Shown here in pieces: positions 10,513 to 58,720 of a stretch of 64,000 nt of DNA. The notes beneath the pieces were generated by a model. The model worked only from the letters and a program-made list of their open reading frames with translations, made no database searches and was not told the origin of the DNA. This DNA is from Nemertoderma westbladi (lineage: Eukaryota; Animalia; Xenacoelomorpha). The stretch lies in contig JAUCBJ010005785.1 of the NCBI GenBank assembly GCA_032718475.1, positions 12,912 through 76,911 on the forward strand, written 5' to 3'. Position 1 is the stretch's first letter, and every line of letters begins with the position of its first letter. Both the position numbers and the translations under genes were made by a program.

Positions 10513-10753
10513 ATACGTTATTTTTTTTATAACTTTCTATTATTATGTGGTTACTATGTATTTATTTATATTGCTACCCATTGAAAGTTCAGTATTTCAG
10601 CCAGCGGTAATGATGGAAGTTAAAATGGTAATTTAAGTAAATTCGAAGATTGTGTAATGATAATAGTAATTTATACTTTGATTTTACCACTGGTATGATC
10701 TATAGTGTAGGCCATCAGGATATAAAGAATTCTAAAACTATCCCCACTATGTG

Positions 10754-12961
10754 ATGAATTCCAACAATTCCCCCATATTCTCGACTGACGCAGTTACCGA
10801 CTACACTCACCCGGAATTGGTGGATCTCAATACCACGGTAATCAATCAGCCGATCAGGAACTTGAAACGTCGCAATAAGAGACTAAGGGTTGATTTCGGG
10901 TTGTCCAGGAACGGCTACAGCAAACGGAGAGGTCTAGATAACCTCCTAGTGGAACAGCCCCCTCCTGAAAATGGTTGCTATGATTACCAAATCAACCAAT
11001 GGTCCCAGCAGTTAACGGAAAACTATGTTAGTTGTAGACCAGCCGATGACGTATTTAAGTCTGACATGGAGTTTGATCAAGATAAAGTGTATGACCTCAG
11101 TATGAAGCCCACCCACAAAACAGTTGAGGACCACAATGTTAAAATAATAAACGTTGATAGTGTCTGCAATTATGAAAGGTTTATTCCCATTGAGGGTCCT
11201 AGAACTTCTAACAACCACTCCAGTCTAATACATACTGACGTCACAACGGTATCACTCGACACTGATGTTAAACATGGGCATGGATTACAGAGTCATAGCG
11301 GATGTGACGTCATCGAAAGGTATGAGGATGAGAGTATTATCTGTGATGTAACTAAGCCTCTTTATGATAAGCTATGCGTGGATGATGTTGCAAATACCTT
11401 TAATATCGAGCTGACAAAAGATTCCTATAAGATGGCCAATGAAGAGGATTTGGGGAAGTCTTTCCCATTGGCTAACACCCACATCGCCACTACCAGCAAC
11501 ACCCCCAGCATCCCCCAATACCTGGATGAGAAAGAAAAGTATATCGCGGAAATACTGCGGATGAAAGAACAACTCCTCGCGTTGGAGGAAACATTCAGCA
11601 GGTTATACGGTGAGGATCCTCCGCATCTGGGTTGTCATGGTAACCGACCAATCCGTCTGGGTAACTATGGTACACAATCAACCCAAGTGGGTAGCCAGGG
11701 TAACCAAACAACACAATTGGGTAGACATGGTAACCAAACAAACCAAATGGGTAGCCATGGCAACGAACCACCCCAAATAGGTTGCTTTGATAACCATCCA
11801 ACCCAGATTGGTAGCCATGGTAACCAATCAACCAAAGTGGGTAGCCATGGCAGCCAACTCGCTCAGCTAGGTAGCCATGACAACAAAGCCTCGAAGCTTT
11901 GTAGCCAGGGCAACCAGCTCTCCCATGGTGTCGGAGAGGATCTAGTTGAGGTTCTTAGCTGCGCCTTAACCAAGGCAGTCGATGGGGCGTTTAAGAAATA
12001 CATTCCAATTATTTATAGTAATAATCACATGGGTGTTACGTTACCAGTTGTGTCACCTCCAGCCCAGCGCCATATTGCGCCAACATCACGCGACGAGGTT
12101 CAGATCATATTGAAACCTGTAGGGGGCGCTGTAGATACGTCAGCATTCAAATGCCGCCCTATTCCATTAATAGAATACCGCCACCAACCGGTGGAATGCA
12201 GTCCCCGGAAACCTCTCGAAGCCCCAGAGCCAATCCCTGTCACTGACCAACCCGCTCGTGTTGATAGCTGCCCGCCTCATAACAACAAGGTCATGGATAT
12301 GGTGTCCGCACCCATTCGGCGGTGCCTTCAGGGCGGTTCTGCGCGAGACAAGAAAGCTCAGCGTTTACTGGTTCAACGTCGGTGTCCCGATGGTGGTGGT
12401 AAAGACAATGTCAAGGTTACAGATAATACGTCAATCCAGACGGCATCCTTCTGGACGTCTAATCTCACCCCCGAACACCTAAAGAAAGCGAAACTCATGT
12501 TCTTTTACACCCGCTATCCAACATCCGCCATGCTGCGAATCAATTTTCCTGATGTCAGATTTACTCGTCACATTAATGCCCAACTCATCAAATGGTTCAG
12601 CAACTTCAGAGAGTACTTTTATATACAGATTGAGAAATTCGCTCGACAATCTGTAGTTGATGGAGCTGCCATTGCTACCGATATCGTGGTTAACGAGGAC
12701 TCTGCACTACATAGGGCCTTGAATCTCCATTACAACAAGGCCAATCTGTTACAAATTCCAAAGAGTTTCGTTACAGCTGTTACAACAACGACTCAGGAAT
12801 TTTTCTTTGCCGTTTTTCATAACAAAGATCGCGACCCATCCTGGAAGAAACGAATATACAAGATTATCACCAAATTGGACTGTAGCATTCCTTTATCATT
12901 CCGTTCCCCCAACTTTATGGAAGAGTTAGAGCGTACTTATCAGCATGAGTATACACAATGA
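10754..12961 (+). CDS. PROX: Prospero/Prox homeo-prospero transcription factor, single-exon CDS
   Basis: C-terminal homeo-prospero domain LTPEHLKKAKLMFFYTRYP...QLIKWFSNFREYFYIQIEKFARQ...DPSWKKRIYKIITKLD. N-terminal KRLRVDFG resembles the Prox1 NLS, and there is a coiled coil (MKEQLLALEETFSRLY). An in-frame TAA at 10733 precedes the ATG at 10754. Confidence 0.95.
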   Translation: MNSNNSPIFSTDAVTDYTHPELVDLNTTVINQPIRNLKRRNKRLRVDFGLSRNGYSKRRGLDNLLVEQPPPENGCYDYQINQWSQQLTENYVSCRPADDVFKSDMEFDQDKVYDLSMKPTHKTVEDHNVKIINVDSVCNYERFIPIEGPRTSNNHSSLIHTDVTTVSLDTDVKHGHGLQSHSGCDVIERYEDESIICDVTKPLYDKLCVDDVANTFNIELTKDSYKMANEEDLGKSFPLANTHIATTSNTPSIPQYLDEKEKYIAEILRMKEQLLALEETFSRLYGEDPPHLGCHGNRPIRLGNYGTQSTQVGSQGNQTTQLGRHGNQTNQMGSHGNEPPQIGCFDNHPTQIGSHGNQSTKVGSHGSQLAQLGSHDNKASKLCSQGNQLSHGVGEDLVEVLSCALTKAVDGAFKKYIPIIYSNNHMGVTLPVVSPPAQRHIAPTSRDEVQIILKPVGGAVDTSAFKCRPIPLIEYRHQPVECSPRKPLEAPEPIPVTDQPARVDSCPPHNNKVMDMVSAPIRRCLQGGSARDKKAQRLLVQRRCPDGGGKDNVKVTDNTSIQTASFWTSNLTPEHLKKAKLMFFYTRYPTSAMLRINFPDVRFTRHINAQLIKWFSNFREYFYIQIEKFARQSVVDGAAIATDIVVNEDSALHRALNLHYNKANLLQIPKSFVTAVTTTTQEFFFAVFHNKDRDPSWKKRIYKIITKLDCSIPLSFRSPNFMEELERTYQHEYTQ
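11629..11930 (+). repeat. 30-bp coding tandem repeat (10 x GSHGNQPTQV-like) inside Prospero
   Basis: GTAGCCATGGYAAC core recurs every 30 nt from 11631 to 11901. Confidence 0.9.
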
Positions 12962-17309: not shown

Positions 17310-17319
17310 CCACTGGTTG

Positions 17320-18393
17320 GGCTACTACTAAGATCGGCATGCTGCATTGCAGCTGCATTTTTAAGAATGCTGTGCCGGCTTATCGACAAAATTGTACCGT
17401 CACAACTCCCTATCACCCAGGACATTTGTTAGATCATCCGCATCTTCAAGGCCAGTGTCCTTTAAGATGCGTCTCAAGAAAGTCATGGGCTGTCCACCAT
17501 TCTTATTCACTCCATGAGGCTGCCAAAGTACAAGATTATGCACTGGCTGGTCCTCACGGTGAAAGCAATGTCCTGCAAAGCGGAGGCGATTTTGTTCTAG
17601 TGTTAAGCTTGGGGGAACCAATGAGACACCCCCAATGTTATATAGTTTCTGGTTGGAGATGTGTGCATTGTACTTGACACAATGAACCCGGCGTAGCATT
17701 CTTGTGAATGTGCCATCCAGAGATTTGGTGTCCTCAGCAGTTAGAGCCCAGCATGGACTCCCATTGAGGAGTACTGGAACTACTGCTGCTCTAAATAATC
17801 GGACCTTAAGTTTCCGATTAATTCTCGTTGACTTCCAAATCCTGGAAAGCCTATTCAAGGCTACCCATGCCTTTCCCTTACGTATTCGAAGATCCTCACC
17901 TGACTTCCGGATCCATGATCTCAGGTAACAGAAGTCAACCACATGCTCAAGCATACCATCTTTTGAGCTTATGCTCATCCGATCAGAGACTTGCGGAGGA
18001 TTTTCAAAGTTAACTGTCAAAATTTTGGTCTTTCTGGAGTTAATAAAAAGACCAACACTAGAAGCAGCATGTTCTACTGAGCTGAGGAGCCGTTGGGCTC
18101 CCTCTAGTGATTCTGAGAGTACTAAGTCATCAGCAAAGTCAGTTAGGTACTTGGCAGGAATTCCTCGACTTCTGGAGCCAGTAGGTGGAGTTATCATCAC
18201 CCCATCATCACTATGATGATCTAAGGACATGCGTAGAACATAGTCAACTAAAATTATGAACAAGAATGGTGCAAGTGTGTCTCCCTGGAGGACGCCCCAT
18301 AACACTTCAAATGGTTCTGTGTCACCGTCAGCAGTAGACACAAATGTTGTCGAACCATCGTATACTGATCTGATTTGAGGAGTCTGATAGTTT
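17320..18393 (-). mobile_element. 5'-truncated RTE LINE (RT domains 4-7 to the 3' end) with (TAG)3 tail
   Basis: GVLQGDTLAPFLF, FADD, VGLFINSRKTK, FCYL, RLRFAGHCFHRE; the 3' end is GCCGATCTTAGTAGTAG. Confidence 0.92.
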
Positions 18394-18798
18394 GTGGAGT
18401 CAGATATGAGGCCCATCACCCATACCTACTCTGACGCACATGACCCAGCATTGGCTGTGCAGCTCATCTGCTGGGCCATACCCTGTACCCCTGCTGCCAG
18501 GTGCAGGTCGCAGTGAAGTGCATTCAGAGTGGACATGAGAACACTCTACTCCTGACCAGCCGCCATTGGTAGATCACCATTTGCCTGGCCAGGCAATATA
18601 CCCCTACAACCAAGTATATGGGTACCCTCTAGCCTTCTTCACAAAGACACACCATGTGGAATTGTACATTCAGCTTATTATAACTTTTTGTTGGTCACAG
18701 CTTTCCAATGTCGACAATGATGTCCAGGTGGGATCGTGCGTACTAGTGACCTCTGGGTTGGAAGTCTGACGCTCTAACCATTCAGCTAGCGACCCAGG
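18394..18798 (-). mobile_element. tRNA-derived head plus 5' leader of the RTE element (SINE-like)
   Basis: Minus strand GGGTCGC-TAGCTGAATGG (A box)-TTAGAGCGTCAGACTTCCAACCCAGAGGTC...CGATCCC (degenerate B box). The leader continues through the duplicated 54-mer into the endonuclease-bearing segment. Confidence 0.65.
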
Positions 18799-26640: not shown

Positions 26641-26899
26641 TCTTATATTTGGTTAGGATATTAAATACGGTATTTATAGATACTCTAACAATAAATATAT
26701 CAAATAAATTAATTAATATATTTGAAATATACAGCTATAAATTACGGTAAATTTTATATTGAATTTTTACATATCGTAGTTTTTTTTATTTTAATAATAA
26801 ACACAAAAAATATAGAAAGAAGAAACTCCAATTGGCCTAACTGTGTAACTAATCGAACCTACAAACATTGTCGTTTCGGTGTATAAGGAAGTTAACATT

Positions 26900-28576
26900 A
26901 TGCAGATTGAGTTGCAATCGGCGTTAAATTTTTTGATGACCTATCTGTACGATAGGTTGCCCCGACGACGGATTTACCTATTCGCCGAGGAGTTGGAAAA
27001 AAATCTCGTCCAAAAATTCGAAGGCCACTGGTACCCGGATAAACCCAGTAAAGGTTCGGGGTACCGGTGCTTGAAGTTCGGTCTGACTAACCTCGACCCC
27101 GTGGTCATTGTGTCTGCTAAATCGTGCGGGGTGGACCTCCAGGACATCCGTTCGTTCATTCCGTTGGATCTGTGTATCTGGGTGGACCCGGGGGAGGTTA
27201 CCTATCGCGTGGGGGGCGACCGCGCTCCGCTCCAGCTCCTCTACTCGTACGACGGAACCGGCCCCTCCGTCGCCGTCGACCGATCCGACTCGCCCGGAAG
27301 TTGGTCCGCGAGTCCGGCTAAATCATCCTCGTCCAGCTCCTCCGCCGGTAGCATGGCCGACGGTCTGACCCCCTCCGAAGAGCTCCGCCCGTGCAGCCCT
27401 TCGAACCACCAGCTATTCACCCAGAAACCGGCCTCGCTAACCTTTAGTAGCGACGCTTTCATTGCGACTAAGTTCGGTTCCACTAAAGTCCGGAATTTCT
27501 CATCGGCACCCCAGTTTATGGCGACGCCTTGCGCCGCTCCGGTAGATGTCCATTCTCCGTTGACGAATCAACAACTTCTCTTCCCATTCCAGGATCGATC
27601 CAATCTTCCCCCCATCAACCAGAACCGCCCGACTTTCTTCCCTTCTTCCTCAGAGGATCTCGAAAATTTTCCCCCCAGGGAGCGAGACTTGCAGCCGATT
27701 CAGCCTCCCGTCTCCCGCGACTTTCCCCCTGCTCAGGCCCCAATCTCCCGGGACTTTCCCCCTGCTCAGGCCCCAATCTCCCGGGACTTTCCCCCTGCTC
27801 AGGCCCCTATCTCCCGGGACTTTCCCCCTGCTCAGGCCCCGGTCTGCTACTCACGGCCGGAAGCGGTTACCTTTTCAGCAGACGAATTCATATCCACGAA
27901 GTTCGGCTCCACCAAATCGCGAAAGAACGCGCGCCGGGCCGACACTTCGGCCATGTCGCAGGATGAGTTCCACGCCTATATGCGTCGTCACATCGCCCAG
28001 TTGCATAGCAACCGGCAACGCAGTATGTTGGCTGTGGCTGCGGCAAACTGCGCCGCCATGGGAGGTCTACCCGCTTACCAGTTCCCTTACTCAATGAACA
28101 AAGATATGGTTATGCAAGCTTTATTCGAGCAGATGTATCTCAATAACAAATCCAATGACGTCACAGAAGCTAATAGTATGACGTCATCGTATGGGGAATC
28201 TTGGCCATTGTCATCCTACGGAGATGGGTTCACTTACTCGTCGGAAGGGGGCGTGTTCGGTTCGTTGAAGAACGCTGGAGGCGGTACTAACTGCGGTTGG
28301 ATGGACGTGCCTGCGCCTTCCATGCCATTCGGATCCTCGCCGCACTCGTTCGGTTCCACGCAGCCGTCGTGGCTCGCGCCCCCTCTGGTCTCGCCGCCCC
28401 ACCGTGCGGCTCCAGCGGTGGCCCCCACCGGCCCGGTTGGTCTGCTGTCCGCTGGGGGCGCTACCGAAGCACCTGGCTACGGCGCCGGTCCCGGTCGTCT
28501 CACTCGTAACATCTTCGATTCGACGCAGTATGACACCCCGTTGCACCAGTCCATCGCCGCTGTCATCGCGAACTAA
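26900..28576 (+). CDS. TOB: Tob (BTG/Tob antiproliferative family, CAF1-binding)
   Basis: BTG domain MQIELQSALNFL...LPRRR...FEGHWYPDKPSKGSGYRCL...LCIWVDPGEVTYRVG, plus the Tob-specific TKFGSTK motif (present twice). Confidence 0.95.
   Translation: MQIELQSALNFLMTYLYDRLPRRRIYLFAEELEKNLVQKFEGHWYPDKPSKGSGYRCLKFGLTNLDPVVIVSAKSCGVDLQDIRSFIPLDLCIWVDPGEVTYRVGGDRAPLQLLYSYDGTGPSVAVDRSDSPGSWSASPAKSSSSSSSAGSMADGLTPSEELRPCSPSNHQLFTQKPASLTFSSDAFIATKFGSTKVRNFSSAPQFMATPCAAPVDVHSPLTNQQLLFPFQDRSNLPPINQNRPTFFPSSSEDLENFPPRERDLQPIQPPVSRDFPPAQAPISRDFPPAQAPISRDFPPAQAPISRDFPPAQAPVCYSRPEAVTFSADEFISTKFGSTKSRKNARRADTSAMSQDEFHAYMRRHIAQLHSNRQRSMLAVAAANCAAMGGLPAYQFPYSMNKDMVMQALFEQMYLNNKSNDVTEANSMTSSYGESWPLSSYGDGFTYSSEGGVFGSLKNAGGGTNCGWMDVPAPSMPFGSSPHSFGSTQPSWLAPPLVSPPHRAAPAVAPTGPVGLLSAGGATEAPGYGAGPGRLTRNIFDSTQYDTPLHQSIAAVIAN
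27710..27841 (+). repeat. 33-bp coding repeat x4 (SRDFPPAQAPI) in Tob
   Basis: TCTCCCGGGACTTTCCCCCTGCTCAGGCCCCAA in tandem. Confidence 0.9.
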
Positions 28577-30077
28577 ATCTAATTCGGTAATTTCGATTGA
28601 TCATCGTTTATTGTGGGAACTTTAATTTTTTAGCGATTGAAACGTGTTTCGGATTATTTTGCAATAATAATTACAGTAGAAATTATGTAAGCGGATTAAG
28701 GTTTATTATAATATACTTCGTAGCGCCTATAAACGGAATTTTATTTTTTATTTCGAGTTGTTTGTTGAGTCTTTGTGAGTGAGAGTCATAAAAAGTGAGA
28801 TATAATTTTGTATTTTTTACTTGCTATGTAATTATCATGATGTTTTTTTTACTACATCAGTAGTAGGTAAGGTACCATATGAGCAGACCTGTTTGTCTGT
28901 TGTGTTGCAGTTTTTTTATACAGTGTTTATTGTAGGTGCGTATTTTACAATTTGACGACAATATTAATACCGAGTGAGTGGCCAATGATGGCCTTGATGT
29001 TTTATTGCAATTGTTTAATTCCATGTTGCCTTGCAGTGCCGATCATATCTACAGTGTCAAACACAATATAATTAATTACTCTATTAATGTTTCCTTATTT
29101 ACTTGCTATATACTTTATATCACTGTTCCATTTTATATCTTTACAATTGGACTGTTGTGATTCGTATAATCTTTGTTTACATTACATACGTTCCTTTGTC
29201 TACTTCTATGCAATTTTATAGCTTTTATGTTATTATCTTTAGTTAAAAAAACGGTTTATACTGAAGTTTATCGTTTTCTTACAATCGAGAAATCCAAAAA
29301 AAAAACATTCAAAAATTTCGATTCTGTGTTTCGTGCCCATTCGAATTGTGTCAAGAATCCAATCCAAACATCAAATAATATATATAGCTAGGGATTAGTT
29401 ATAAATATACGAAATTTGTTTAATCCGCCGTCCCACAGATATAAATATAGCTGACCAGATATCTATGTGTCACTCTGCTAATGTTTAAGTTTAAGATTAG
29501 GTTCGTTCCCTGAGGTTCCATTACAATATTAATAATTACCAAGTCTAGTAAACCCATTTACTACAGTTTCATAAACCATATACCAACCATATCATCAATG
29601 TTATAAAAAAATTATAGTTATAATAGAGATCTATTCTACCATAACGTATTAAAAAATATCAAAAAGTTATCGTATCAAAAAGTATCAAAATCAAATCGTA
29701 TCAAAAAGTTGAACTTTTTTTACTATTCTCGGGGCATTTTATTATTATCAGTAAGAGATAATATTGAAAAGTGCCTTACTCAATGTTAAATAATTTAGTG
29801 TTCTCGAATAGTTTTAACGTAACTAAAGAACCACTTAACAACTAAAACCAATATTGGACATTGAGTTCCGTTTTGAAGTTCGCCTTGCAGATACTAAAGT
29901 TGCAATAACTTTTGAGTTTTGAGTGTGTGAATGGATTTTGCTCAAATTAAGTGCAAAGCTTTTCTACGTCGATGCTCTTTCAACACATGTAATATAATTT
30001 AAGAAATTCCACCAAAAATTTTTTAATTTACTTTTTCACCTGTGTAACACGCTGAGATAACTCACCACCAAATATGA

Positions 30078-30501
30078 CTCCCCAGTCTTCTCAGCCTAGG
30101 CTGAGAACACTCCCCAGTCTTCTCAGCCTAGGCTGAGAACACTCCCCAATTTTCTCCCTAGATTTCTTAATTAACGGAAAGGAGCAGGTTACAGTAGCGG
30201 GCTTTTCTAACCAAAATAATAAACGATAACTCAATAAGGATATAGGTTACAGTTTTATTTTTGCAATATACGAAAATAACACAGGTACGGATATGAAGTA
30301 CGAACAAATTATGAATGAGTCATCCTCAGCCTAAGGGGAGTGTTCTCAGCCTAGGATGATATATCTGGGGAGTGTACTCAGCCTAGGCTGAGACGACTGA
30401 GGAGTGTTCTCAGCCTATGCTGAGCTGACTGAGGTGTGTACTCAGCCTATGCTGAGACGACTGAGGAGTGTTCTCAGCCTATGCTGAGACGACTGAGGAG
30501 T
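30078..30501. mobile_element. MITE-like element with inverted arms built from ~32-bp palindromic tandem units
   Basis: CTCAGCCTAGGCTGAG-containing units at 30078-30148 and, inverted, at 30325-30501 flank a family-A core. Confidence 0.65.
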
Positions 30502-31024
30502 GAGGTACAGGCAGTTGTAGAATACGTGTCCCCTTTGAGAATAATATAAACTGGAACTGATACGGGGGGGGGGGGGGGGTTCTTGTACAGCTAAATAAAA
30601 TACATTATATGTGTTCATGTTCAATGCGGTGAGGTTGGCATCGTCACCCTTGGGAAGGTGGGAATACTACATTTAATATAATAATATAGAAATCTAAACT
30701 AAAGATAACTTATTTCGAAAAAATATCGTTAATTAAAGGCCACAGAAGGCTTGCTAGACCCATCGTAGGGCAAGGGTCTCGGTAATTCTATGAAAGAAAC
30801 TAAAGTGTTGATTATTGTTATCGAAGAGTCTCTGCTTAATTGATCTAAAACGCTTGATGAAATGGTCGGAATTCATTCATGCTACTTACAACGATAGTAC
30901 ACATACACAATGCTTTCATGCGTTTAGGCCACAGCGTATTTAAATTCTCCAATAAACGAATTAACTGCAGCATAAATAAATAAAATAGATTATTTCGACT
31001 AGTGATTCCCCTTATTGTTATTAG

Positions 31025-34000
31025 GATGTTTGAGAATGATGAGGGACTACAGCCTGCTGGTTATGCCTTCCTGCAAGAGTTCCTGAGCAACCAAAGTCAT
31101 CAACCACAACACTACGGCGATAATCTAGAAGGATGTGGGTTGGAAAACGAGACTGCAGTTAGAAAGGTGAGTCGTAACTCGTAAAAATTCTATAAATTCC
31201 GTTATTCTTCGTTTATTATCAATAATATACAGTAATGAACTGGACTATTTCTAGAAGCACATCAGTTAACTCTACAAAGCACCTTCAACCAACATAACCA
31301 ACCAGCATTGCACCATAATTAATTAACAAACTATTTAAATACGTAACGAATTAATACAGAACGTGTACAAATCAATTTAGACATCTAAAATAAATTGCAT
31401 TACACTAACTCATATCGAGAATCATATCGCATGGGAATATATCCTGTTAGAAGACAACCATTTCTATTTTACACTGACTTTTACACCACATAATATAGAA
31501 ATAAAGTAAGACATACGAAATAATTATATAAAATAAATATTATGGCCAATGAAATAAATAATCGTGCAATATAACATTTATCCGTCACAAACTATGGATT
31601 CTTCTTCGATTATAAAATGTAGGTAGAATATAGGCAGCAGTCTTGTGGAACCAAATCCGTAAATACGGTAGAACAATATAGGCCAGAACGATAAGGAACA
31701 TGATATTAATGCGAAACAATAACAGCTGTCTGTACTTGGACCATTCCCTTAGGTCGTCTACATAGAGGAATCTATTGCGGTAGTCAGCTGATAGTTCGAA
31801 CGGGGATGGTTTGGGGTACAGAGTCTCTAGTAGATCCTTAACAATAGCCTTGACAACATGGGCATCAGCATGGTTGTGGTCGATGTTATCGTTTAGGCAT
31901 ATAAACTTCTTCGGTCGTCTACGGATATCGTCCATCTGGTCAATGACCTTGGAGACGTTGCTACGGATCATTTTAAAGGCAACTTGTTCATCGTCTGTTG
32001 TTTCAAACTTATATTTATTGCGGTTAGTGTAAGAAGTGGATTCGTTTATCTTATTAAGGAGAGGTTCGCATGATTGGAAGACTGCTCTGGTCACCTGAGG
32101 AAGGATTGGGTTGTAGTAGGTCTCCTCGGGTCTATGTGGGTATTCCTCTGGGTTGGTTTTGGTGCAGTTCGATATGATGTACTCCATGTTGGTCAGACTC
32201 CCCATGGTTAGAGGGAATGGGTAAAGTCTAACGGCGAGGACTCTTAACTCCCTGTCGGAAAGTACACCGGAGTCATCAGTGTCGAGGTCTTCGAAAATTT
32301 GAGAGAAATTTAGTTTCACTTTCGCTTCCATTAGGTAGTAATAGTAGGAGAAAGCGAATTGCATATCTTCAGAGTGTCGCAGCTTATGGGAGGATGTCTT
32401 GTGGAATTCCTCGGGGAATGTTTCGTGAAGTTCCTCGACTATATCTCTGTTCGCGAAGTGCGGCATATGTGCGGGAACTGATCGGGCCGCGTGTCCGAAC
32501 GCTCGGTTGTACAACGAGTTCACGTAGAGCAAGGAATCACTGAAGCTATCCAGCAGTAACCGACCCCGCCCTCCACGAGTTCTGTACGACTCCTTAAGAG
32601 CATCGCGTTTATATTTTTCCTCCACCAACGAATCATAAGTTCCCAGTTTCTCCCAAGGCAAACTCCCATAGTTCTCTACTAATTTTGTCTTCGTTATTTT
32701 TTCAACGTAATTTTCACTTAATGATAAAATATCTCTGCTCAATTTACTTTCAGTTTTATAAGAATCGTTAATTAGTGATGTATTTAATGATTTACTTACA
32801 TGATGTGATATGTTTGTATTTAAATTTAATGCACTTAATGATAATGGTATGATAGTCTCACTGTTATTGTTTACATTGAAATTGGAAGTGATAATTGATT
32901 GATATGGTGATAATAATGTGTTAAGGTAACGCGTGTATCCCAAACGAGTTAATTCCTCGTTCGCGTATTTAGTTTGCAGCTGTTTGACGTGGCGGAGTAC
33001 CCCGTCGGGTAGACCCCGAGTGTCTAGGTAGTCTGGGAGACCCGAGGGAGCCCCACCCGCGTACAGCGAGCGGTTCACCTTGGGGCCCAGACTCCCGTCC
33101 GGGATGTCCGGGATACTGATGACGTCATCCGCGCCCATCTCCGTCTCCTTGGCGACCAGGAACTCCCCCCGCGAGGTATCGCAGACCACGGACCACCTCG
33201 TCGCCACGGTTACGTTCCCCGCGTCCGCCGTTACCAGGAAGTCAACCCGAGTGGAGCCGACGTTGGCGTAGAGAACGACTGTCATCGAACGGGAGGGAAT
33301 GTTGACTCCGACGACTCTCACTATATCCCCGTTGCTATCGTAACTCGCTGTTACTACGGTAGCGTTCGCGTCTATGACATCATTGAGATCGATGTAGAAG
33401 ACGCCCCAACCGAGAGGCGCCACTTCCGGTTTCGTGACGTCATTGATGGTGAGTTTGTTTATTAAGTGGAGCTGTGGACCGCAGTCGCCGGCGTCGTAAC
33501 CGCAGACCGGGCGGTTGCATGCGGGGTCGCAGTAGCGGTCCGCTACCCAGCCGTCGAAGCACCCGGGCGCGCACATTGAGTCCTCCGAGTGCGCGCCCGC
33601 GTAACCGCCGCGCCCAGGGCGCGCGCCCAGACAGTCGCCGCCGTCGTAGTCGCAACGCGAGCGGTTACAGACGGCATCGCAGTAGCCGTCGGCGAGCCAA
33701 GCCGCTGCGCAGCCCTCGGCGCAACTCGGGACCGGCCACGTCAGATACACGCGCTGCCCGCTGGAGGGCGCTAGGAAGTCGGACGGGCGGATCGGGGCCC
33801 CGAAGAAGACGTCGTCGTTGAGGTAGATGAAGTGGTTGGAGAGGCCGGGGATGCGGTGGAGGTTGGCCTCGATGGCGGGCGAGCTGAAGGTCGGGAGGTG
33901 GGAGCGGTTCGCGAAGATTTCCGCGTGAGTGACCAGGACGACCCGCGGGTGCTCCAGGTTCAACCAGTGCGGGATCTGGCCGTTGGTTACCACGTAGACG

Positions 34001-37000
34001 CGACGCACCCACGGGGCGTAGCGAGCGACCGAGCGTAGCGAGTAGCGGAGTTCCTCGTTGTCCTGGAAGCGGTTGGACTCACTTCGATCGTCCGTCGGGA
34101 GCGCGTCGAGGTCCCAGACTAAACTCGCCGTGTTTATACGTCGGTCCCACTCGTGCGCGGTCACGAACGCGGATAGGTCCTCCGTGCGTGACGTCACCAA
34201 GGCGGCGTTCGCATGGACGATGACGTCAGCAGAGACCGGAAGTCCGTCGGCGCGGAGTCGGTTTCGGACCTGATCGGCCCGAGTCGTTACGTTCTCTACG
34301 ATAAACGCGTGGCTCAGTAGGACGCTGTGAGGCGCTAAATAGTTCGTGGTCACGTATCCCTGAGAGGCGTGCACCGCTGCACCGTTAATATCCACCGGTG
34401 AACTCATCGCTTTTAGTAAACTCGATTCCAACGCGAATTCCATGACGGTAATTTGGAATTGGAATTCCCCGGGGACGGTTTTGTTGTACATAGTCAACGC
34501 CGGCATAAACTGTTTGTATTTGAGTTGAAGTTCCGACAGTTTAATGTGGCCGGGGACGGCCGGTTGAAGAATCAGCATGTTTGTTGGGATGCAATGCGAA
34601 TAAGGACAGAGGGAGTCGGTTTGTTCCACTCCGTTCTGCTCGCGTTCCATAACGCGTCGCACTTTACGTAGTTCCACTAGCATCCGCGGATCCGACCCGT
34701 TGACCCACGTGTAAACAACGTCAACCGGTAACGGACCCCCTATGTCGTCCCATACCGAACGATCAGCTATGTTGTCGCGGTAAACTTGGATAATATAATC
34801 CCCACTGTTGTTACCCATATGCTGCAAAGATACATGAGATACGGAGAGGAAATACATTGCGGAAAAGGCAAACACAATGATTCCAGCGAATATTAAATAA
34901 ATACTGTAGCGACGAGATAAACATGAGTAGGTGTGTTTTTGTATAAGTTTATGTAGCATATCGGTTGCAGAGTATCGATGCGAATTTCTGCTACCGTTAC
35001 CGCCGCTACCAGTAATTATTTCCCAGCTTGTTAAACAGCGACATCGCTGTTCTATCCAACCGCGAATAAACATGGAGATTACCGGTAGCTGTGTTCGCTA
35101 CTGTCTATTCCAGTATTCGGGCAGTCGGATTCGCGTGCTTCAAATCTAAAATTGCCAGACTTCGATGTGTCATTGTCAAACCCAATCCTGTCTTTATAAT
35201 AATTATGATGTGTGAAGTACACCAAGTAAGTAAGCCCCTAAGCAGTAAGCACCGGAGTTTGGGACATTATACTGTTATAGGCCTACTGCATGCATAGTGC
35301 AGTAGTGCATGAAGTTGAAGTACAGGTACCGGCAGACCAGTAGTGCTGGTATTGTGTTGGGTAGGGCGAGATCTACCTAGTTATGCCTATTGCAGTATTG
35401 AAAAATTATTTACTTTCAATTTCGGTTAGTTTCAGTTATTGGTAATTGATCATTGTTAGTACCAGAATGCGTAATGTTGTAGCTTGTAGGTAAATCAGTA
35501 CAAAACTAAATCACCTGTTTTAATGTTTAATCTAAGTGATTTTTACGGTGGAAAATTTGGGTCAATTAATTTTTTTATTTTTTCATTCCAGCAAATTCTA
35601 AATGCTGAAATGATGTTATATTTATATTCTTAAATTGTTACTTTTTCGCTCGAAAATACCCCAAATTCGTGAGAAATTTTCCCTACTGAAAAAGTAACGA
35701 ATCTCGAATGGTACTTTGGGGAACACTGAGGCGATACAGGAAATAGGACTTTACATTAATATGCCAACGCGAGCCACGATTGGGCTCGCGCTGCAATCTC
35801 AGTAACTACAAACTAGTAGTACAGATACTGTCACATATCAGCGAATCTTTATATTATTATTGAAATTACACCATGGTTGTGGTAAAATTGGCAAACATCT
35901 CAGTACTTAAAAGTAATAAATAAAGTATATAAAATAAATTAAAATTAATTAAACTAGTTAAGGAGCCTAGTATAGAAAATAAATTAAAATTAATTAAACT
36001 AGTTAAGGAGCCTAGTATAGAAAATAAATTAAAATTAATTAAACTAGTTAAGGAGCCTAGTATAGAAAATCTATCTACAAATTGAAAACGGACGTTTGCT
36101 TAATGTACCGCGTAACGATAAATTATGCCAGCTCTGTAATGTCCAAGAAGTGGAGGATGAATACCACTTTGTACTTAAATGTCCGCTCTATCATGATCTA
36201 CGCATTACATTTTTGGCAGTAAGATATCATAGAAATCCTTCATTGGTCAATTTTCTTGAACTCCTCAGTCTGACGGCGGATTGCAAAATTAAGCAGTTTG
36301 GTGTGTTTTTATACCACGCCTTTAAATTACGACTGGAGGCTAAAACCTAGTTAGTATTACGTGTGTTGAATGTTTGTGGTGTGAGTGAGAATGTGTTGGA
36401 AGTTCTACGGTTTAGATTGTTATTATATATATAATATATATTATGTTCCTACTTTATGTACTGGGTTCATCTATTTATTTATTTTCTAAATGTATATGTA
36501 CTCCGGTATTGTAGCGTGCAGTTGGTAATACTTTGCTCTCAACAATAGCCTTAATTGGCTTGTGATTAAAAATAAACAAACCAAGAAATCCATCAGATTT
36601 AACAGCACTGCAAATCATTGAAACCATGTTATTGAAGTTTTGGAATGACTTCGAAATGACTAAAAACTACCGCGATTCAAAGAAAATTATTTTTAATAAT
36701 TACAGTATGTACTGTAGCAAGATTAAAGATTACTTCTTATAAATTGCATCATTACGTTTATTTTATTCACTTTGTATTTCTTAACAATATTAGAAAGCCC
36801 GCAAGCTGGCTGGAAGGAGCCCGGGGGAAAAATAACTATGTCAGTCAGCAGTAAGTAAACTAAAATTGTCTAAACTGCAAGGCGTGAGGCTAGCTGACTT
36901 TGTGGCTCGCCCCACATAATAAAAAATGCAACTTAGCTACCACTAACAAAAATATATTATGAAGCAAATAATTTCATTATCAAGCACGTTTACAAGATAT

Positions 37001-40000
37001 AAGATACGATTACCAAATATTTATAAAAAATTCCCATGATGGACAACCAGATAAATAACAACGATTAGAGCCAAATAACAAATTTAGTTTCCTTCTATAG
37101 GTATCGCCCCGTCGTCAAGCGGAATATCTCTTCCCAGTGAATCCTATGTGAATATGTAATATAGGTATTCCTGCTAAGTTAGGCAGTAGGCCAGAGCGGG
37201 CTCCTTAAATACATGCAACTACTGTATTATAGTGTAGATCAACTATAAAACATAGGCAAACCACAGTGAGTAACAACTGCAATAGGACACAACACACTGC
37301 TTTGTGTAACTAAAATTCATTCTCCTGATCCACCCCTTAACATAGCAGAGTGAGTAACCTTATTGTAGATATACCCTTAGGAAGCACTGGGAGAGCAATC
37401 AGCTTATGGGGTAATACATTAGAAACCAACAGCTTATGTGTGAGTAAACATTGCCTTTCCTTATAGCCTACTAGTAAAACTTGGCAACCAACACGTTTTA
37501 CTATGACTGTGTATAACATATTAAGCCATATTTCATCATGAACACCTATATTTATTATCCTGATATTTTGTTATTTTTCCGGAACAGGAAAGTTCCTGTT
37601 CCTCGGGTTAAAATAACCGGAAAATAACAAAATATCAGGGTAATAAATGTGTTGTTACCAACTAATCTCGGAAAAAATAACCAACTACATCATGTTTATA
37701 TCAAGAAGCCACTATTAATTTACAATATACCAAACCCATCCAGATACCCTAGATTTCTAAAAGGGTTTTGTTTGGGGGTAGAAATATAAAAATGGGGCTT
37801 GGAAATTTTGGGGGGAGACACTAATTACAAATTATTAAATAACACGAGCGGCCAAGGCATAAAATAAATAAATAACATGAGCGGGCCTATGCCTAACAAT
37901 TTCCCCCTGGCGGGTAAACTGGAATAAAGTAAAAAAAACAAATAAATATAATAGATTAAATAATAAAGTAATATAGAATAAATGATGGAAAATACTAGAA
38001 TTTATTTCCATTCCACAGTATGTATAGGTAACACGATGATAGTGATGGGAGTCTACTCGGGACAGCTGAGAGCGTTACATCGTGTGGAATTGGGTGAGAC
38101 ACAATGTAGACAGAACCATTCGTGTGAGAATAGGTGAATGTAGGCTTACCATACTGTATACGATGTACGAATTTAACTTAAGAATAAACTTACGTATTTC
38201 AGTATATGAGAAAAAAGTAGAACATTTTGTTTCTCAATATTCTCTCAACCCTTTATTAACCTCGCTGAAGCTCGGTAAATAAAATGCCTCGAGAATAACG
38301 AAAAAAAGTTCTACTTTTTTTCCCATGTACCTAATAAATAATTATTTATTCTTAAATTGTTACTTTTGCGCCCGAATTTAGATCAAAATCTGGAGAAAAT
38401 ATTTAACTTTTTTTCCTGGCGAAAAAAGTAAAATATAATATTTTTGGTGGAATTTCTTAAATTGTATTACCGTTGTACCGGTACCGTACGTAGTTCTACA
38501 GCATTGTGCATGTGCAGTATGTAAACCTACGTTATTTACAACTGGTAGGTACAAGTCTGTCTGTCTGGTACGTTCGTCTTTACAGTAGAATCGTAGAAAC
38601 TGTAAGAGAATGTGTAGAGAATGGTATTCCTGCCATGATCAGGATGCTGCTGTCCATAATTGTCAAATACCGAAAGTAAAAGATCTCTGAGTAGGCTGAA
38701 TTGAGTGTGCAATCTGAACTTGTAGTGTAGGCCTACCAGTACTGCATTTCCCGTTTAGTTTGCCAGTACCGGTACATTAAATTATTGCCCAATATGCTCT
38801 GTTCTGTAGGCGTACCGGTCAGGTAGGTTTTGTAGTTGCAAGGCAGTGATGTGATTGAGACATTAAAGGAAGCTGTGGTACCACTACCGGTACTGTACGA
38901 TGCATGCAGTCAGTCTACCTACAATCTGAACTGAAAACATACCATAGGCCTACGATAGTCTTATTCTTATAACTTTCACTTTCACTCATGTTAGTAAAGG
39001 TAACCGGTACCCTAAGCTAACTAATGTATTCACAACACGGCAAACAGGCATAAATATAATTTCAACATGCAGATTGCAGATACCGGAGTGTTGAAAAATA
39101 AATGTGTTATTTTTTCCTAGGACTAAAATAACACTATTTTTAGATAGGTTATCATTGCGATTGTGTTATTTTTTCCGGGATTGGTTGGTAACAACAGCTG
39201 TTATTTTACCATTGCTTTTAATTTCGCGACAAAATAATGTCAAAAAACTAAATATATCGAATACCACACATATAATCGATCTGAAATTTTGTAACGCGAT
39301 TATGAACCACCAAAGCAATGTACTTGCAAAATTTCATCAAAATCGCCAGGCAGGAAGTGCCTGAACTTGGATAATTATCAGTCAGTGTTAAATATCCTGA
39401 GATTTTTACAGAAAGTATCCCTGAGATTCTTACAGTAAGTATCCCGCTGTCAAGCGGGCTCCTAATTACGTAAGTAAACATGGCTTAAACAATGGCATTT
39501 ACAGTATTTAACAAATTTGTATAATACTTTATATGCTGAGCGAGATAATTAGTTTACCCACAAATTCCGATCTAAGTCATTGTCGGTTTATCTGAAGCGA
39601 TTGGTTGAGTTGACGTTCAATATGGTTAAGATCGAAATTTCTGGGCAAAAACCTCAAACGTTGACATACCTAAGGTAGCTCAGCCTAAGGCTGTATCATC
39701 TACTGTACAGTATTTGCTCAAGTATTACTTTTAATATTTTATATTCTGCATCCACTTAAACTAATATAAATATATTGTTATTTCAGGCATTCTATTTATT
39801 AGTACGGCGCGTCGTTAAAGTTGCTAACAAAATCCTCGACTCTGATGGAGAGCGTTCTTTACTATCTGAGCACACAATTGGTAGGTTTATTATGAGGCAG
39901 ACACACAATTGGTAGGTTTATTATGAGGCAGACACACAATTGGTATGTTTATTATGAGGCAGACACACAATTAGTAGGTTTATTATGAGGCAGACACACA

Positions 40001-43000
40001 ATTGGTAGGTTTATTATGAGGCAGACACACAATTGGTATGTTTATTATGAGGCAGACACACAATTGGTAGGTTTATTATGAGGCAGACACACAATTAGTA
40101 GGTTTATTATGAGGCAGACACACAATTGGTATGTTTATTATGAGGCAGACACACAATAGGTAGGTTTATTATGAGGCAGACACACAATTGATAGGTTTAT
40201 TATGAGGCAGACACACAATTGGAAGGTTTATTATGAGGCAGACACACAATTGGTATGTTTATTATGAGGCAGACACACAATAGGTAGGTTTATTATGAGG
40301 CAGACACACAATTGATAGGTTTATTATGAGGCAGACACACAATTGGAAGGTTTATTATGAGGCAGACACACAATTGGTAGGTTTATTATGAGGCAGACAC
40401 ACAATTAGTAGGTTTATTATGAGGCAGACACACAATTGGTATGTTTATTATGAGGCAGACACACAATTGATAGGTTTATTATGAGGCAGACACACAATTG
40501 GAAGGTTTATTATGAGGCAGACACACAATTGGTAGGTTTATTATGAGGCAGACACACAATTGGTAGGTTTATTATGAGGCAGACACACAATTGGTATGTT
40601 TATTATGAGGCAGACACACAATTAGTAGGTTTATTATGAGGCAGACACACAATTGGTATGTTTATTATGAGGCAGACACACAATTGGTAGGTTTATTATG
40701 AGGCAGACACACAATTGGTAGGTTTATTATGAGGCAGACACACAATTGGTAGGTTTATTATGAGGCAGACACACAATTGGTAGGTTTATTATGAGGCAGA
40801 CACACAATTAGTAGGTTTATTATGAGGCAGACACACAATTGGTATGTTTATTATGAGGCAGACACACAATTGATAGGTTTATTATGAGGCAGACACACAA
40901 TTGGAAGGTTTATTATGAGGCAGACACACAATTGGTAGGTTTATTATGAGGCAGACACACAATTGGAAGGTTTATTATGAGGCAGACACACAATTGGTAG
41001 GTTTATTATGAGGCAGACACACAATTGGTAGGTTTATTATGAGGCAGACACACAATTGGTAGGTTTATTATGAGGCAGACACACAATTGGTATGTTTATT
41101 ATGAGGCAGACACACAATTGGTAGGTTTATTATGAGGCAGACACACAATTGGTAGGTTTATTATGAGGCAGACACACAATTGGTAGGTTTATTATGAGGC
41201 AGACACACAATTGGTAGGTTTATTATGAGGCAGACACACAATTGGTAGGTTTATTATGAGGCAGACACACAATTGGTATGTTTATTATGAGGCAGACACA
41301 CAATTAGTAGGTTTATTATGAGGCAGACACACAATTGGTAGGTTTATTATGAGGCAGACACACAATAGGTAGGTTTATTATGAGGCAGACACACAATTGG
41401 TATGTTTATTATGAGGCAGACACACAATTAGTAGGTTTATTATGAGGCAGACACACAATTGTTAGGTTTATTATGAGGCAGACACACAATTGGTATGTTT
41501 ATTATGAGGCAGACACACAATTGATAGGTTTATTATGAGGCAGACACACAATTGGAAGGTTTATTATGAGGCAGACACACAATTGGTAGGTTTATTATGA
41601 GGCAGACACACAATTGGTAGGTTTATTATGAGGCAGACACACAATTGGTATGTTTATTATGAGGCAGACACACAATTAGTAGGTTTATTATGAGGCAGAC
41701 ACACAATAGGTAGGTTTATTATGAGGCAGACACACAATTGGTAGGTTTATTATGAGGCAGACACACAATTGATAGGTTTATTATGAGGCAGACACACAAT
41801 TGGAAGGTTTATTATGAGGCAGACACACAATTGGTAGGTTTATTATGAGGCAGACACACAATTGGTAGGTTTATTATGAGGCAGACACACAATTGGTATG
41901 TTTATTATGAGGCAGACACACAATTAGTAGGTTTATTATGAGGCAGACACACAATTGGTAGGTTTATTATGAGGCAGACACACAATAGGTAGGTTTATTA
42001 TGAGGCAGACACACAATTGGTATGTTTATTATGAGGAAGACACACAATTGGTAGGTTTATTATGAGGCAGACACACAATTGGTATGTTTAATATGGGGCA
42101 GACACACAATTGCTAGGTTTATTATGAGGCAGACACACAATTGTTAGGTTTATTATGAGGCAGACACACAATTGGTAGGTTTATTATGAGGCAGACACAC
42201 AATTGGTAGGTTTATTATGAGGCAGACACACGATTGGTAGGTTTATTATGAGGCAGACACACAATTGGTAGGTTTATTGTGAGGCAGACACACAATTGTT
42301 AGGTTTATTATGAGGCAGACACACAATTGCTAGGTTTATTATGAGGCAGACACACAATTGGTAGGTTTATTGTGAGGCAGACACACAATTGGTATGTTTA
42401 TTATGAGGCAGACACACAATTGGTAGGTTTATTATGAGGCAGACATACAATTGGTAGGTTTATTGTGAGGCAGACACACAATTGGTATGTTTGTTATGAG
42501 GCAGACACACAATTGGTAGGTTTATTATGAGGCAGACACACAATTGGTAGGTTTATTATGAGGCAGGCTCACAATTGGTAGGTTTATTATGAGTCAGACA
42601 CACAATTGGTAGGTTTATTATGAGGCAGACACACAATTGGTAGGTTTATTATGAGGCAGACACACAATTGTTAGGTTTATTATGAGGCAGACACACTATA
42701 GGTAGTTTTATTATGAGGCAGACACACAATTGGTAGGTTTATTATGAGGCAGACACACAATTGTTAGTTTTATTATGAGGCAGACACACTATTAATTGGT
42801 AGGGTTATTATGAGGCAGACACACAATTGTTAGGTTTATTATGAAGCAGACACACAATTGGAAGGTTTATTATGAGGCAGACACACAATTGTTAGTTTTA
42901 TTATTAGGCAGACACACTATTAATTGCTAGGGTTATTATGAGGCAGACACACAATTGGTAGGTTTATTATGAGGCAGACACACAATTGGTATGTTTATTA

Positions 43001-46000
43001 TGAGGCAGACACACAATTGGTAGGTTTATTATGAGGCAGACACACAATTGGTACGTTTATTATGAGGCAGACACACAATTGGTAGGTTTATTATGAGGCA
43101 GACACACAATTGGTAGGTTTATTATGAGGCAGACACACAATTGGTAGGTTTATTATGAGGCAGACACACAATTGGTATGTTTATTATGAGGCAGACACAC
43201 AATTGGTAGGTTTATTATGAGGCAGACACACAATTGGTAGGTTTATTATGAGGCAGACACACTATAGGTAGGTTTATTATGAGGCAGACACACTATTGGT
43301 AGGTTTATTATGAGGCAGACACACAATTGTTAGTTTTATTATGAGGCAGACACACAATTGGTAGGTTTATTATGAGGCAGACACACAATTGTTAGTTTTA
43401 TTATGAGGCAGACACACAATTGGTAGGTTTATTATGAGGCAGACAACACATTGGTAGGTTTATTATGAGGCAGACACACAATTGGTATGTTTATTATGCG
43501 GCAGACACACAATTGGTAGGTTTATTATGAGGCAGACACACAATTGGTAGGTTTATTATGAGGCAGACACACAATTGGTAGGTTTATTATGAGGCAGACA
43601 CACAATTGGTAGGTTTATTATGAGGCAGACACACTATAGGTAGGTTTATTATGAGGCAGACACACAATTGGTAGGTTTAATATGAGGCAGACACACAATT
43701 GGTAGGTTTATTATGAGGCAGACAACACATTGGTAGGTTTATTATGAGGCAGACACACAATTGGTATGTTTATTATGCGGCAGACACACAATTGGTAGGT
43801 TTATTATGAAGCAGACACACAATTGGTAGGATTATTATGAGGCAGACACACTATAGGTAGGTTTATTATGAGGCATACACACTATTGGTAGGTTTATTAT
43901 GAGGTAGACACACAATTGTTAGTTTTATTATGAGGCAGACACACAATTGGTAGGTTTATTAAGAGGCAGACACACAATTGTTAGTTTTATTATGAGGCAG
44001 ACACACAATTGGTAGGTTTATTATGAGGCAGACACACAATTGGTAGGTTTATTATGAGGCAGACACATAATTGGTAGGTTTATTATGAGGCAAGCTCACA
44101 ATAGGTAGGTTTATTATGAGGCAGACACACAATTGGTAGGTTTATTGTGAGGCAGACACACAATTGGTAGGTTTATTATGAGGCAGACACACAATTGGTA
44201 GGTTTATTATGAGGCAGACACACAATTGGTAGGTTTATTGTGAGGCAGACACACAATTGGTAGGTTTATTATGAGGCAGACACACAATTGGTATGTTTAT
44301 TATGAGGCAGACACACAATTGGTAGGTTTATTATGAGGCAGACACACAATTGGTATGTTTATTATGAGGCAGGCACACAATTGGTAGGTTTATTATGAGG
44401 CAGACACACAATTGGTAGGTTTATTTTGAGGCAGACACACAATTGGTAGGTTTATTGTGAGGCAGACACACAATTGGTAGGTATATTATGAGGCAGACAC
44501 ACAATTGGCAGTTTATTATGAGGCAGACACACAATTGGTAGGTTTATTATGAGGCAGACACACAATTGGTAGGTTTATTATGAGGCAGACACACAATTGG
44601 TAGGTTTATTATGAGGCAGACACACAATTGGTAGGTTTATTATGAGGCAGACACACAATTGGTAGGTTTATTATGAGGCAGACACACCATAGGTAGGTTT
44701 ATTATAGGCAGACACACAATTGGTAGGTTTATTATGAGGCAGACACACAATTGGTAGGTTTATTGTGAGGCAGACACACAATTGGTAGGTTTATTATGAG
44801 GCAGACACATAATTGGTAGGTTTATTTATGAGGCACACACACCATAGGTAGGTTTATTATGAGGCAGACACACAATTGGTAGGTTTATTATGAGGCAGAC
44901 ACACAATTGGTAGGTTTATTATGAGGCAGACACACAATTGGTAGGTTTATTTATGAGGCACACACACCATAGGTAGGTTTATTATGAGGCAGACACACAA
45001 TTGGTAGGTTTATTATGAGGCAGACACACAATTGGTAGGTTTATTGTGAGGCAGACACACAATTGGTAGGTTTATTATGAGGCAGACACATAATTGGTAG
45101 GTTTATTTATGAGGCACACACACCATAGGTATGTTTATTATGAGGCAGACACACAATTAGTAGGTTTATTATGAGGCAGACGCACAATTGGTAGGTTTAT
45201 TATGATGCAGACACACAATTGGTAGGTTTATTATGAGGCAGACACACAATTGGTAGGTTTATTATGAGTCAGACACACAATTGGTAGGTTTATTATGAGG
45301 CAGACACACAATTGGTAGGTTTATTATGAGGCAGACACACAATTGGTAGGTTTATTATGAGGCAGACACACAATTGGTAGGTTTATTATGAGGCAGGCTA
45401 ACAATTGGTAGGTTTATTATGAGGCAGACACACAATTGGTAGGTTTATTATGAGGCAGACACACAATTGGTAGGTTTATTATGAGGCAGGCTCACATTTG
45501 GTAGGTTTATTGTGAGGCAGACACACAATTGGTAGGTTTATTATGAGGCAGACACACAATTGGTAGGTTTATTATGAGGCAGGCTCACATTTGGTAGGTT
45601 TATTGTGAGGCAGACACACAATTGGTAGGTTTATTATGAGGCAGACACACAATTGGTAGGTTTATTATGAGGCAGACACACAATTGGTAGGTTTATTATG
45701 AGGCAGGCTCACATTTGGTAGGTTTATTGTGAGGCAGACACACAATTGGTAGGTTTATTATGAGGCAGACACACTATAGGTAGGTTTATTATAAGGCAGA
45801 CACACAATTGGTAGGTGTATTATGAGGCAGACACACTATTGGTAGGTTTATTATGAGGCAGACACACAATTGGTAGGTTTATTATGCTTCAGACACATAA
45901 TTGGTAGGTTTATTATGAGGCAGACACACAATAGGTAGGTTTATTATGAGGCAGACACACAATAGGTAGGTTTATCATGAGGCAGACACACAATTGCTAG

Positions 46001-58199: not shown

Positions 58200-58720
58200 T
58201 AAGCAACGGTTTATTAATTTAATTATTTTTTGTGCGGAATCTCAATGCGGAAAATGGCACAAACCCTCCATAATTAAGCAATGGGTGTTGAAAGGGAGGC
58301 CACAGACTGTACCGCCCATATTCCAAGACCGGCCCATACGCTGCGTTCCATCGGCCCAAATATCCCACAGATTGCTTCCGTAAAAACACATTGCATAGCG
58401 TCGTTGGATTTCAAATAAACATGACGGAAAGGTGAAGGAGAATTCTTGGTGTGAACTACGCCATTTTCCTACGAATTGACCTCTCTTAATGGTTAAGTCC
58501 GCCTCGAAGCAGCACTTAAAGTCCAAAACATTCCCAAGGTGCTTAGCTTTCCTAACCCAAGGCAGTCTAACACCCTCCAAAATAACATTACAGCGAGGCT
58601 CAGACCATTTTTGGCCGAATGGTATTCACTTTGATTTACTCTTCGCTGGGTCGCTGTCCCGGCTAAACTTGAGATTATATTTCAAAGAGAACTCTCTGAC
58701 ATTATTGTATGAAATTCTTT
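58200..58720 (-). mobile_element. Decayed LINE (L2/CR1/Crack-like) RT C-terminal fragment
   Basis: YNLKFSRDSDPAKSKSK..LPWVRKAKHLGN..FYGSNLWD..GLPFNTH. Confidence 0.7.

What the first reader, a model, noticed from the sequence alone, without database searches (positions are those of the whole stretch)
31025..39880. Intronless GNPTAB nested antisense inside a ZZEF1 intron
Seen: exon 31025-31166 joins exon 39787 in phase 0 to give LEGCGLENETAVRK|AFYLL, which is contiguous in ZZEF1 as I recall it, so the 8.6-kb intron contains the entire 3.4-kb GNPTAB ORF. Established: vertebrate GNPTAB is a multi-exon, free-standing gene. Inference: a retrocopy landed in the intron and may have replaced the parent. 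A minus-strand AATAAA at 31217-31212 would end its mRNA only tens of nt from the host donor.
Basis: partly seen in the sequence, partly recalled or inferred. Interest (0 to 1): 0.75.

Follow-up and report, generated by a model that had tools for sequence, protein, structure and literature searches.

The report
Intron-free GNPTAB nested inside ZZEF1
In this invertebrate, an intact, intron-free gene for the enzyme that tags lysosomal proteins sits backwards inside an intron of the ZZEF1 gene; it is likely an old mRNA-derived copy that probably took over from its parent, a known kind of gene nesting.

Summary
Observation confirmed. A full-length 1124-aa GNPTAB frame (34959-31585, minus strand) lies inside an 8620-nt GT-AG intron (31167-39786) of ZZEF1. 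The flanking exons align contiguously to ZZEF1 homologues, and contigs of two RNA-like runs from two studies join them exactly. GNPTAB contigs of one run are colinear, with no skip, and stop 19 nt past the AATAAA, 26 nt from the host donor. Listed variants are mostly synonymous (19 of 27).

The origin is less sure. Mollusc and chordate isoforms imply shared introns, which favours retroposition. But no poly(A) remnant or target-site duplication survives. Intron-free GNPTAB also occurs in a lophotrochozoan clade, and outgroup-like loci are intron-poor. 'Replaced the parent' is unproven: no whole genome is held; two DNA runs show no second copy at 90% identity or more, but one RNA-like run holds a second GNPTAB-like contig.

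The preceding ZZEF1 exon is not in the window, so intronless Tob and Prospero-like genes may be nested in the previous intron. The scan noted nested retrogenes of other genes on other DNA, not this pair. Verdict: new member of a known kind.

The parts
31025..31166 (+). ZZEF1 internal exon, 142 nt, ends in phase 0
   Evidence: AG/GT flanks; profile hit E 2.5e-9; contigs in X4 and X5 run on unlike the window at both ends
31167..39786 (+). ZZEF1 host intron, 8620 nt, GT-AG; holds GNPTAB and repeat fragments
39787..39880 (+). next ZZEF1 exon, 94 nt, ends in phase 1 and fits in frame to 48716
   Evidence: junction letters match 39788-39817 exactly; open frame in the model
31585..34959 (-). GNPTAB alpha/beta precursor, single frame, 1124 aa plus stop; an extra in-frame ATG lies at 35073
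   Evidence: Pfam Stealth CR1-4 and LNR; 37-39% identity to 9 animal GNPTABs; solved chain 7s05_B E 9.9e-222
31193..31584 (-). inferred 3' UTR of GNPTAB; AATAAA at 31217-31212; X4 contig ends at 31193, followed by a T-rich stretch
   Evidence: one study only, and contigs cannot show an RNA end
34960..35276 (-). inferred 5' UTR; high-depth X4 contig reaches 35276, a low-depth one 35895; no joint seen
26849..28576 (+). Tob/BTG-family single frame; would lie in the preceding ZZEF1 intron if the gene is colinear
   Evidence: Pfam BTG; X4 contigs on 26679-29068; preceding ZZEF1 exon absent from the window
10736..12961 (+). Prospero-like single frame with an unbroken homeo-prospero domain; would lie in the preceding ZZEF1 intron if the gene is colinear
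   Evidence: Pfam HPD positions 2-153 of 154; nesting inferred as for Tob

Best explanation
An intact, intron-free GNPTAB lies antisense in a spliced ZZEF1 intron; it likely arose long ago as a reverse-transcribed mRNA copy and is probably now this animal's working lysosomal GlcNAc-1-phosphotransferase gene (an orphan retrogene). Shown: the nesting, the exact junction in contigs of two studies, a whole frame from the N-terminal membrane anchor to the C-terminal one, and mostly synonymous variation. Inferred: GNPTAB has its own promoter near 35.2-35.9 kb and is cut and polyadenylated near 31193, so the two mature mRNAs would not overlap although the transcription units converge. ZZEF1 reads through and splices the gene out; being on the other strand, the AATAAA cannot end ZZEF1. 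From established knowledge of the family: the protein is predicted to be a Golgi precursor cut by site-1 protease that starts mannose-6-phosphate tagging.
For: Junction in X4 and X5; the DNA-like runs X1 and X3 go straight through the stretch. X4 contigs cover the frame colinearly, with no joint listed. Of the 40 variant rows shown (10 more hidden), 27 fall in the frame: 19 synonymous, 8 non-synonymous, pN/pS 0.13, binomial p 2.4e-7. Isoform pairs of six molluscs differ by a 6-8 aa segment at the site where a pig and a dog entry differ by 14 aa; Patella, two Branchiostoma pairs and dog switch C-termini at one shared site. I read these as introns shared by lophotrochozoans and chordates; the window is unbroken at both sites. 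X1 and X3, read whole, laid 2 records each: one spans the stretch in one piece, the other matches only 19-21 nt, so no near-identical second copy appeared. About 20% of annotated animal retrogenes are intronic (PMC5408686, passages). Retroposition is called the most parsimonious cause when all introns are gone (PMC3548309, passages).
Against: No poly(A) remnant (longest A run 4 in 31167-31600) and no flanking direct repeat over 8 nt. Outgroup-like loci are intron-poor: L003 and L005 have 2 introns and L006 at least 1, all in the 3' half, and L021 has none. The window's place among bilaterians is unresolved (end branch 2.11, open fork), so the intron-free state may be old. X4 holds a low-depth contig that fits only 33377-33411, with flanks that read as a diverged GNPTAB. 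Laying at 90% identity cannot see an old parent. No ZZEF1 match was found beside GNPTAB in any of 80 related loci, so the nesting cannot be dated.
Confidence: 0.45

Rival explanations
1. Not a retrocopy: GNPTAB was already intron-poor in this lineage, or lost its introns in place by recombination with cDNA, and later came into the ZZEF1 intron by a DNA-level move or rearrangement.
For: Single-frame GNPTAB in 22 loci (L009-L020, L022-L031), 18 of them whole-length, on contigs up to 17.3 kb; the 14 put in a tree form one clade among lophotrochozoans. Outgroup-like loci show 0-2 introns. The host's own last 3473 nt are one exon, and the Prospero-like gene is unbroken, which hints at lineage-wide intron loss. 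No retro-hallmark.
Against: Shared isoform breakpoints in molluscs and chordates mean that introns must have been lost if the organism lies among them. The genome keeps ordinary introns in ZZEF1 (7 in the model). This reading needs two steps where retroposition needs one.
Confidence: 0.35
2. The nested gene is a retrocopy or duplicate that lives beside a second, diverged GNPTAB, so it has not replaced the parent.
For: The X4 contig fits 33377-33411; its two flanks, each read alone in the continuing frame, give EINDVIGVPD and ISDDYAIDK against the window's TINDVTKPEVAPL and IDANATVVT, with DNA identity only 9/30 and 12/30. The window protein has a long branch and an odd letter make-up.
Against: No matching piece was laid in X1 or X3 (a filter drops some records). 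Study P3 also holds organisms B and C, so the contig may come from another species. Variation in the nested gene is mostly synonymous.
Confidence: 0.18
3. Assembly artefact: GNPTAB was mis-joined into the intron.
For: The intron beyond about 35.9 kb is repeat-rich, and no listed contig bridges it to 39787.
Against: Single contigs of X1 and X3 span 30620-35600, holding the ZZEF1 exon, its donor and the whole GNPTAB frame. The gene therefore lies directly behind a donor that is spliced to the next exon.
Confidence: 0.02

Closest known systems
Orphan retrogenes / retrogene replacement (PMC3548309, passages); amphioxus SYCP1 (PMC5803294, abstract and outline)
   Same: A large, normally multi-exon gene present as one coding exon of about 3.2-3.4 kb, intact and under constraint, in an invertebrate.
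   Different: Loss of the parent is not shown here; the gene is nested in an intron rather than adjacent to a gene; no spliced 5' UTR was seen in X4 contigs.
Opposite-strand nested genes (Drosophila survey PMC5174743, passages)
   Same: Internal gene in a long intron on the opposite strand, the majority class (71.3% in D. melanogaster); 37% of such internal genes are intronless; hosts with several internal genes are known.
   Different: Internal genes there tend to be small and tissue-specific; this is a 1124-aa enzyme, a housekeeping one in other animals (recalled), and it seems to end 26 nt from the host donor.
GNPTAB, GlcNAc-1-phosphotransferase alpha/beta (Stealth family; PDB 7s05; PMC13528052 and PMC1285062, passages)
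   Same: Two membrane helices, CR1-CR4, two LNR repeats, an EF-hand-like loop and a basic motif at the alpha/beta cut site, all aligned.
   Different: One coding exon against 21 in human; long branch, at most 40% identity over 1076 columns; short spacer, and no Pfam DMAP hit.

Membership tests
Nested antisense gene | lies wholly between two exons of one host gene that are spliced together | tested here: met
Nested antisense gene | internal frame on the strand opposite the host | tested here: met
   frame strands; RNA strand itself is not shown by contigs
GNPTAB (animal Stealth) | Stealth CR1-CR4 with LNR repeats between CR2 and CR3 | tested here: met
   all five families above the gathering cut-off
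GNPTAB (animal Stealth) | groups with bilaterian GNPTAB in a tree | tested here: met
   100/99 for the 13-row bilaterian clade; place within it open
GNPTAB (animal Stealth) | enzyme activity and site-1 protease cleavage | not testable with these tools
   motifs align; no assay
Retrogene | lacks introns present in the ancestral gene | tested here: inconclusive
   unbroken at sites where mollusc and chordate isoforms break, but outgroup-like loci are also unbroken there
Retrogene | poly(A) remnant and target-site duplication (expected in young LINE-made copies) | tested here: not met
   that old copies lose these marks is recalled, so this does not exclude an old copy
Retrogene | intact, expressed, under purifying selection | tested here: met
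   that X4 and X5 are RNA is inferred
Orphan retrogene | multi-exon parent absent from the genome | tested here: inconclusive
   no genome held; no copy at 90% identity or more in X1 and X3; a second GNPTAB-like contig in X4
Orphan retrogene | position differs from the ancestral locus (synteny) | not testable with these tools
   no close relative found; no ZZEF1 match beside GNPTAB in 80 distant loci with flanks up to 6 kb

The most novel reading that the evidence does not exclude
ZZEF1 in this long-branch bilaterian is a host for a stack of intron-free genes: GNPTAB antisense in one intron, and Tob and a Prospero-like gene on the host's own strand in the preceding intron of over 31 kb. Its own last 3.5 kb are also one exon. 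This would mark a genome remodelled by reverse transcription, and GNPTAB as a gene that shed all its introns at least twice in animals.
Probability: 0.35. Interest if true: 0.6.

Novelty: new member of a known kind. Interest (0 to 1): 0.36.

Why it matters
The kind is common, so the case changes no principle. It adds a well-supported invertebrate example in which a large enzyme gene is intron-free and nested, and seems to end 26 nt from the host splice donor, a compact setting for testing interference between converging genes. The side result that GNPTAB is intron-free in at least one other animal clade warns against calling retrogenes from vertebrate gene structure alone. Three paper searches (GNPTAB+intronless; GNPTAB+retrogene; ZZEF1+GNPTAB) listed 1, 3 and 6 papers, none about this by title or start of abstract; the library covers only CC-licensed PMC papers and bioRxiv.

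Tried and rejected
No whole genome is held, so tblastn for a parent was not possible. No run is on record as RNA ('no RNA holder listed'); X8 laid nothing. tblastn with two vertebrate ZZEF1 proteins missed both flanking exons; invertebrate homologues were needed. A guessed exon at 46308-46360 broke the frame and was dropped. A search for short proteins like GNPTAB residues 485-720 found none among 1272 candidates, so the X4 second contig stays unassigned. The 4.6-kb contigs of X1 and X3 match only 19-21 nt in opposite orientations and were taken as chance. Exact look-ups gave no organism names for the intron-free loci: 6 of 10 sequences were in the collection, none with a relevant name. Of 12 flanking frames scanned, 1 hit Pfam (CDT1, L031). 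A shared origin of the window gene and L013/L022 was not rejected (p-AU 0.054), though the free tree keeps them apart. A paper search on human intron positions found 0 papers, so I could not compare L003's introns with human ones. Searches on ZZEF1 structure and on a guessed taxon name gave nothing on those questions; one search did list PMC3548309. Repeats in and around the intron form no evident element enclosing GNPTAB. No supplementary files were read.
Full report
Observation. The window is animal DNA with long tandem arrays and no N. The exon at 31025-31166 and the exon at 39787-39880 have canonical AG/GT flanks and join in phase 0. A minus-strand frame 35097-31585 is open for 1170 codons and carries Stealth CR1-CR4 and two LNR stretches. 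Its conserved start is the ATG at 34959, giving 1124 aa that align end to end with nine animal GNPTABs at 37-39% identity and to PDB chain 7s05_B at E 9.9e-222.

The host is ZZEF1. The 3473-nt exon found lungfish and pig ZZEF1 and 23 representatives; of the nine looked up, five are named ZZEF1 or ZZEF1-like, from a brachiopod, echinoderms and molluscs. The joined first two exons aligned across the junction to 7 of 8 long homologues. After dropping one wrong exon guess, an 8-exon GT-AG model gave 1490 aa with a single terminal stop and covered profile positions 1493-2801 of 2824. Only the first junction was checked on reads.

The junction is real. Five runs of three studies hold the stretch or part of it; none is on record as RNA. 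X2 has flat depth of 21-31 over single-copy parts, and X1 and X3 span 30620-35600 in one contig each, so they behave as DNA. X4 has high depth over Tob and GNPTAB and 0-3 in the neighbouring single-copy bins. In X4 and X5 one contig lies on 31019-31167 only and continues with letters that match 39788-39817 exactly, at one place in the window. No such contig was laid in X1 or X3. I infer that X4 and X5 are RNA and that the 8620-nt intron is spliced out. Contigs do not show strand or level.

The nested gene looks functional. X4 contigs cover it colinearly from 31193 to 35276, with a lower-depth piece to 35895 and no joint. The contig end at 31193 is 19 nt past the only minus-strand AATAAA nearby and 26 nt from the donor, followed by a T-rich stretch. 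This is one study, so a weak hint. Of 40 variant rows shown (10 hidden), 27 lie in the frame: 19 synonymous and 8 non-synonymous, pN/pS 0.13, p 2.4e-7; some may be errors of the window's assembly. The only indel listed inside the frame is 9 nt, in frame.

Origin. Human GNPTAB has 21 exons, other vertebrates essentially the same, and flies a different structure (PMC1285062, passages). I compared 19 protein pairs, most of them isoforms of one species. Six mollusc pairs differ by a 6-8 aa segment at the site where a pig and a dog entry differ by 14 aa, and Patella, two Branchiostoma pairs and dog switch C-termini at one site; the other pairs differ elsewhere. Read as exon boundaries (inference), these show introns shared by lophotrochozoans and chordates, and the window is unbroken at both sites. 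That favours an mRNA-derived origin. Against this, no poly(A) remnant or flanking direct repeat over 8 nt survives. A metagenome scan kept the best 80 of 414 confirmed loci. Twenty-two of them (L009-L020, L022-L031) have one uninterrupted frame, 18 whole-length, on contigs up to 17.3 kb; the 14 placed in a tree form one clade with molluscs and a nemertean. Loci outside the bilaterian clade are intron-poor: L003 and L005 have two introns, L006 at least one, L021 none; L002 has none but may be cDNA. The window groups with bilaterians (100/99), but its place is open and its branch long; a clade with L013/L022 was not rejected (p-AU 0.054). If the organism branches outside lophotrochozoans plus deuterostomes, the intron-free state could be ancestral. 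None of the 80 loci showed ZZEF1, Tob or Prospero nearby.

Parent. No genome is held. X1 and X3, read whole, show no second copy at 90% identity or more, which cannot see an old parent. X4 holds a low-depth contig that fits only 33377-33411 and whose flanks read as a diverged GNPTAB. It may be a paralogue or come from another organism in that study; I could not tell.

A wider pattern. The letters that precede exon 31025 in X4 and X5 occur nowhere in the window: 0 matches at up to 3 mismatches, and at best 10 mismatches in 30. The ZZEF1 profile found no significant hit upstream of 30984 (best E 0.85). If the gene is colinear, the preceding intron exceeds 31 kb and holds the single-frame Tob and Prospero-like genes on the host's strand. 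The repeat tract 29801-30591 between Tob and the exon is not bridged by the listed contigs, so this rests on the assembly. Intronless internal genes are over-represented in same-strand nestings in Drosophila (71.5%; PMC5174743, passages).

Comparison and verdict. Nested opposite-strand genes, intronic retrocopies and orphan retrogenes are all described (PMC5174743; PMC5408686; PMC3548309; PMC5470649, all passages; PMC5803294, abstract and outline). The domain layout and site-1 cleavage are from PMC13528052 (passages). I found no paper on this pair in three searches (listings only). The scan's notes hold nested retrogenes of other genes in other genomes and nothing on this locus. It is a nested antisense GNPTAB; it works like an orphan retrogene, but membership of that class is unproven. 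Odds: orphan retrogene 0.45, no retroposition 0.35, second copy kept 0.18, artefact 0.02. Interest 0.36.

Noticed in passing
window 10736-12961 (+): Prospero-like single frame with an unbroken homeo-prospero domain and an internal 30-nt tandem repeat at 11628-11916; that this domain is split by introns in flies and vertebrates is recalled, not tested.
   Followed up: partly
window 26849-28576 (+): Tob/BTG single frame covered by X4 contigs 26679-29068 and an X5 contig to 29261; no AATAAA and one ATTAAA (29648) in 28576-29700. If nested on the host strand, its 3' end must be read through by ZZEF1.
   Followed up: partly
window 52887-56359 (+): The last 1157 codons of ZZEF1 are one exon while the upstream part has seven short exons; a 3'-biased pattern as expected from cDNA-mediated intron loss. 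The many vertebrate exons there are recalled, not tested.
   Followed up: partly
window 33377-33411, run X4: Low-depth contig that fits only these 35 nt; its flanks read as a diverged GNPTAB. Paralogue or another species.
   Followed up: partly
L009-L020, L022-L031: A lophotrochozoan clade with single-frame GNPTAB on contigs up to 17.3 kb; L031 has a CDT1-like piece upstream on the other strand.
   Followed up: partly
window 7-219 (-): Short frame after an AG with a hydrophobic helix and a cysteine-rich run, perhaps the last exon of a small membrane protein; it too would lie in the long ZZEF1 intron.
   Followed up: no
window 63722-64000 (-): Frame running in from the window end that resembles the C-terminus of NUDT9-type ADP-ribose pyrophosphatase (resemblance recalled, not searched).
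   Followed up: no
window 3300-10520 and 39871-46106: Long tandem arrays, 69 nt x 105 and 31 nt x 201; the second begins inside the end of the ZZEF1 exon 39787-39880, so each unit repeats the donor-like sequence.
   Followed up: no
window 16077-18425 (-), 47137-47950 (+), 58242-58625 (-): Decayed LINE-like reverse-transcriptase and endonuclease fragments by eye (not scanned against a family library); a possible source of reverse transcriptase in this genome.
   Followed up: no
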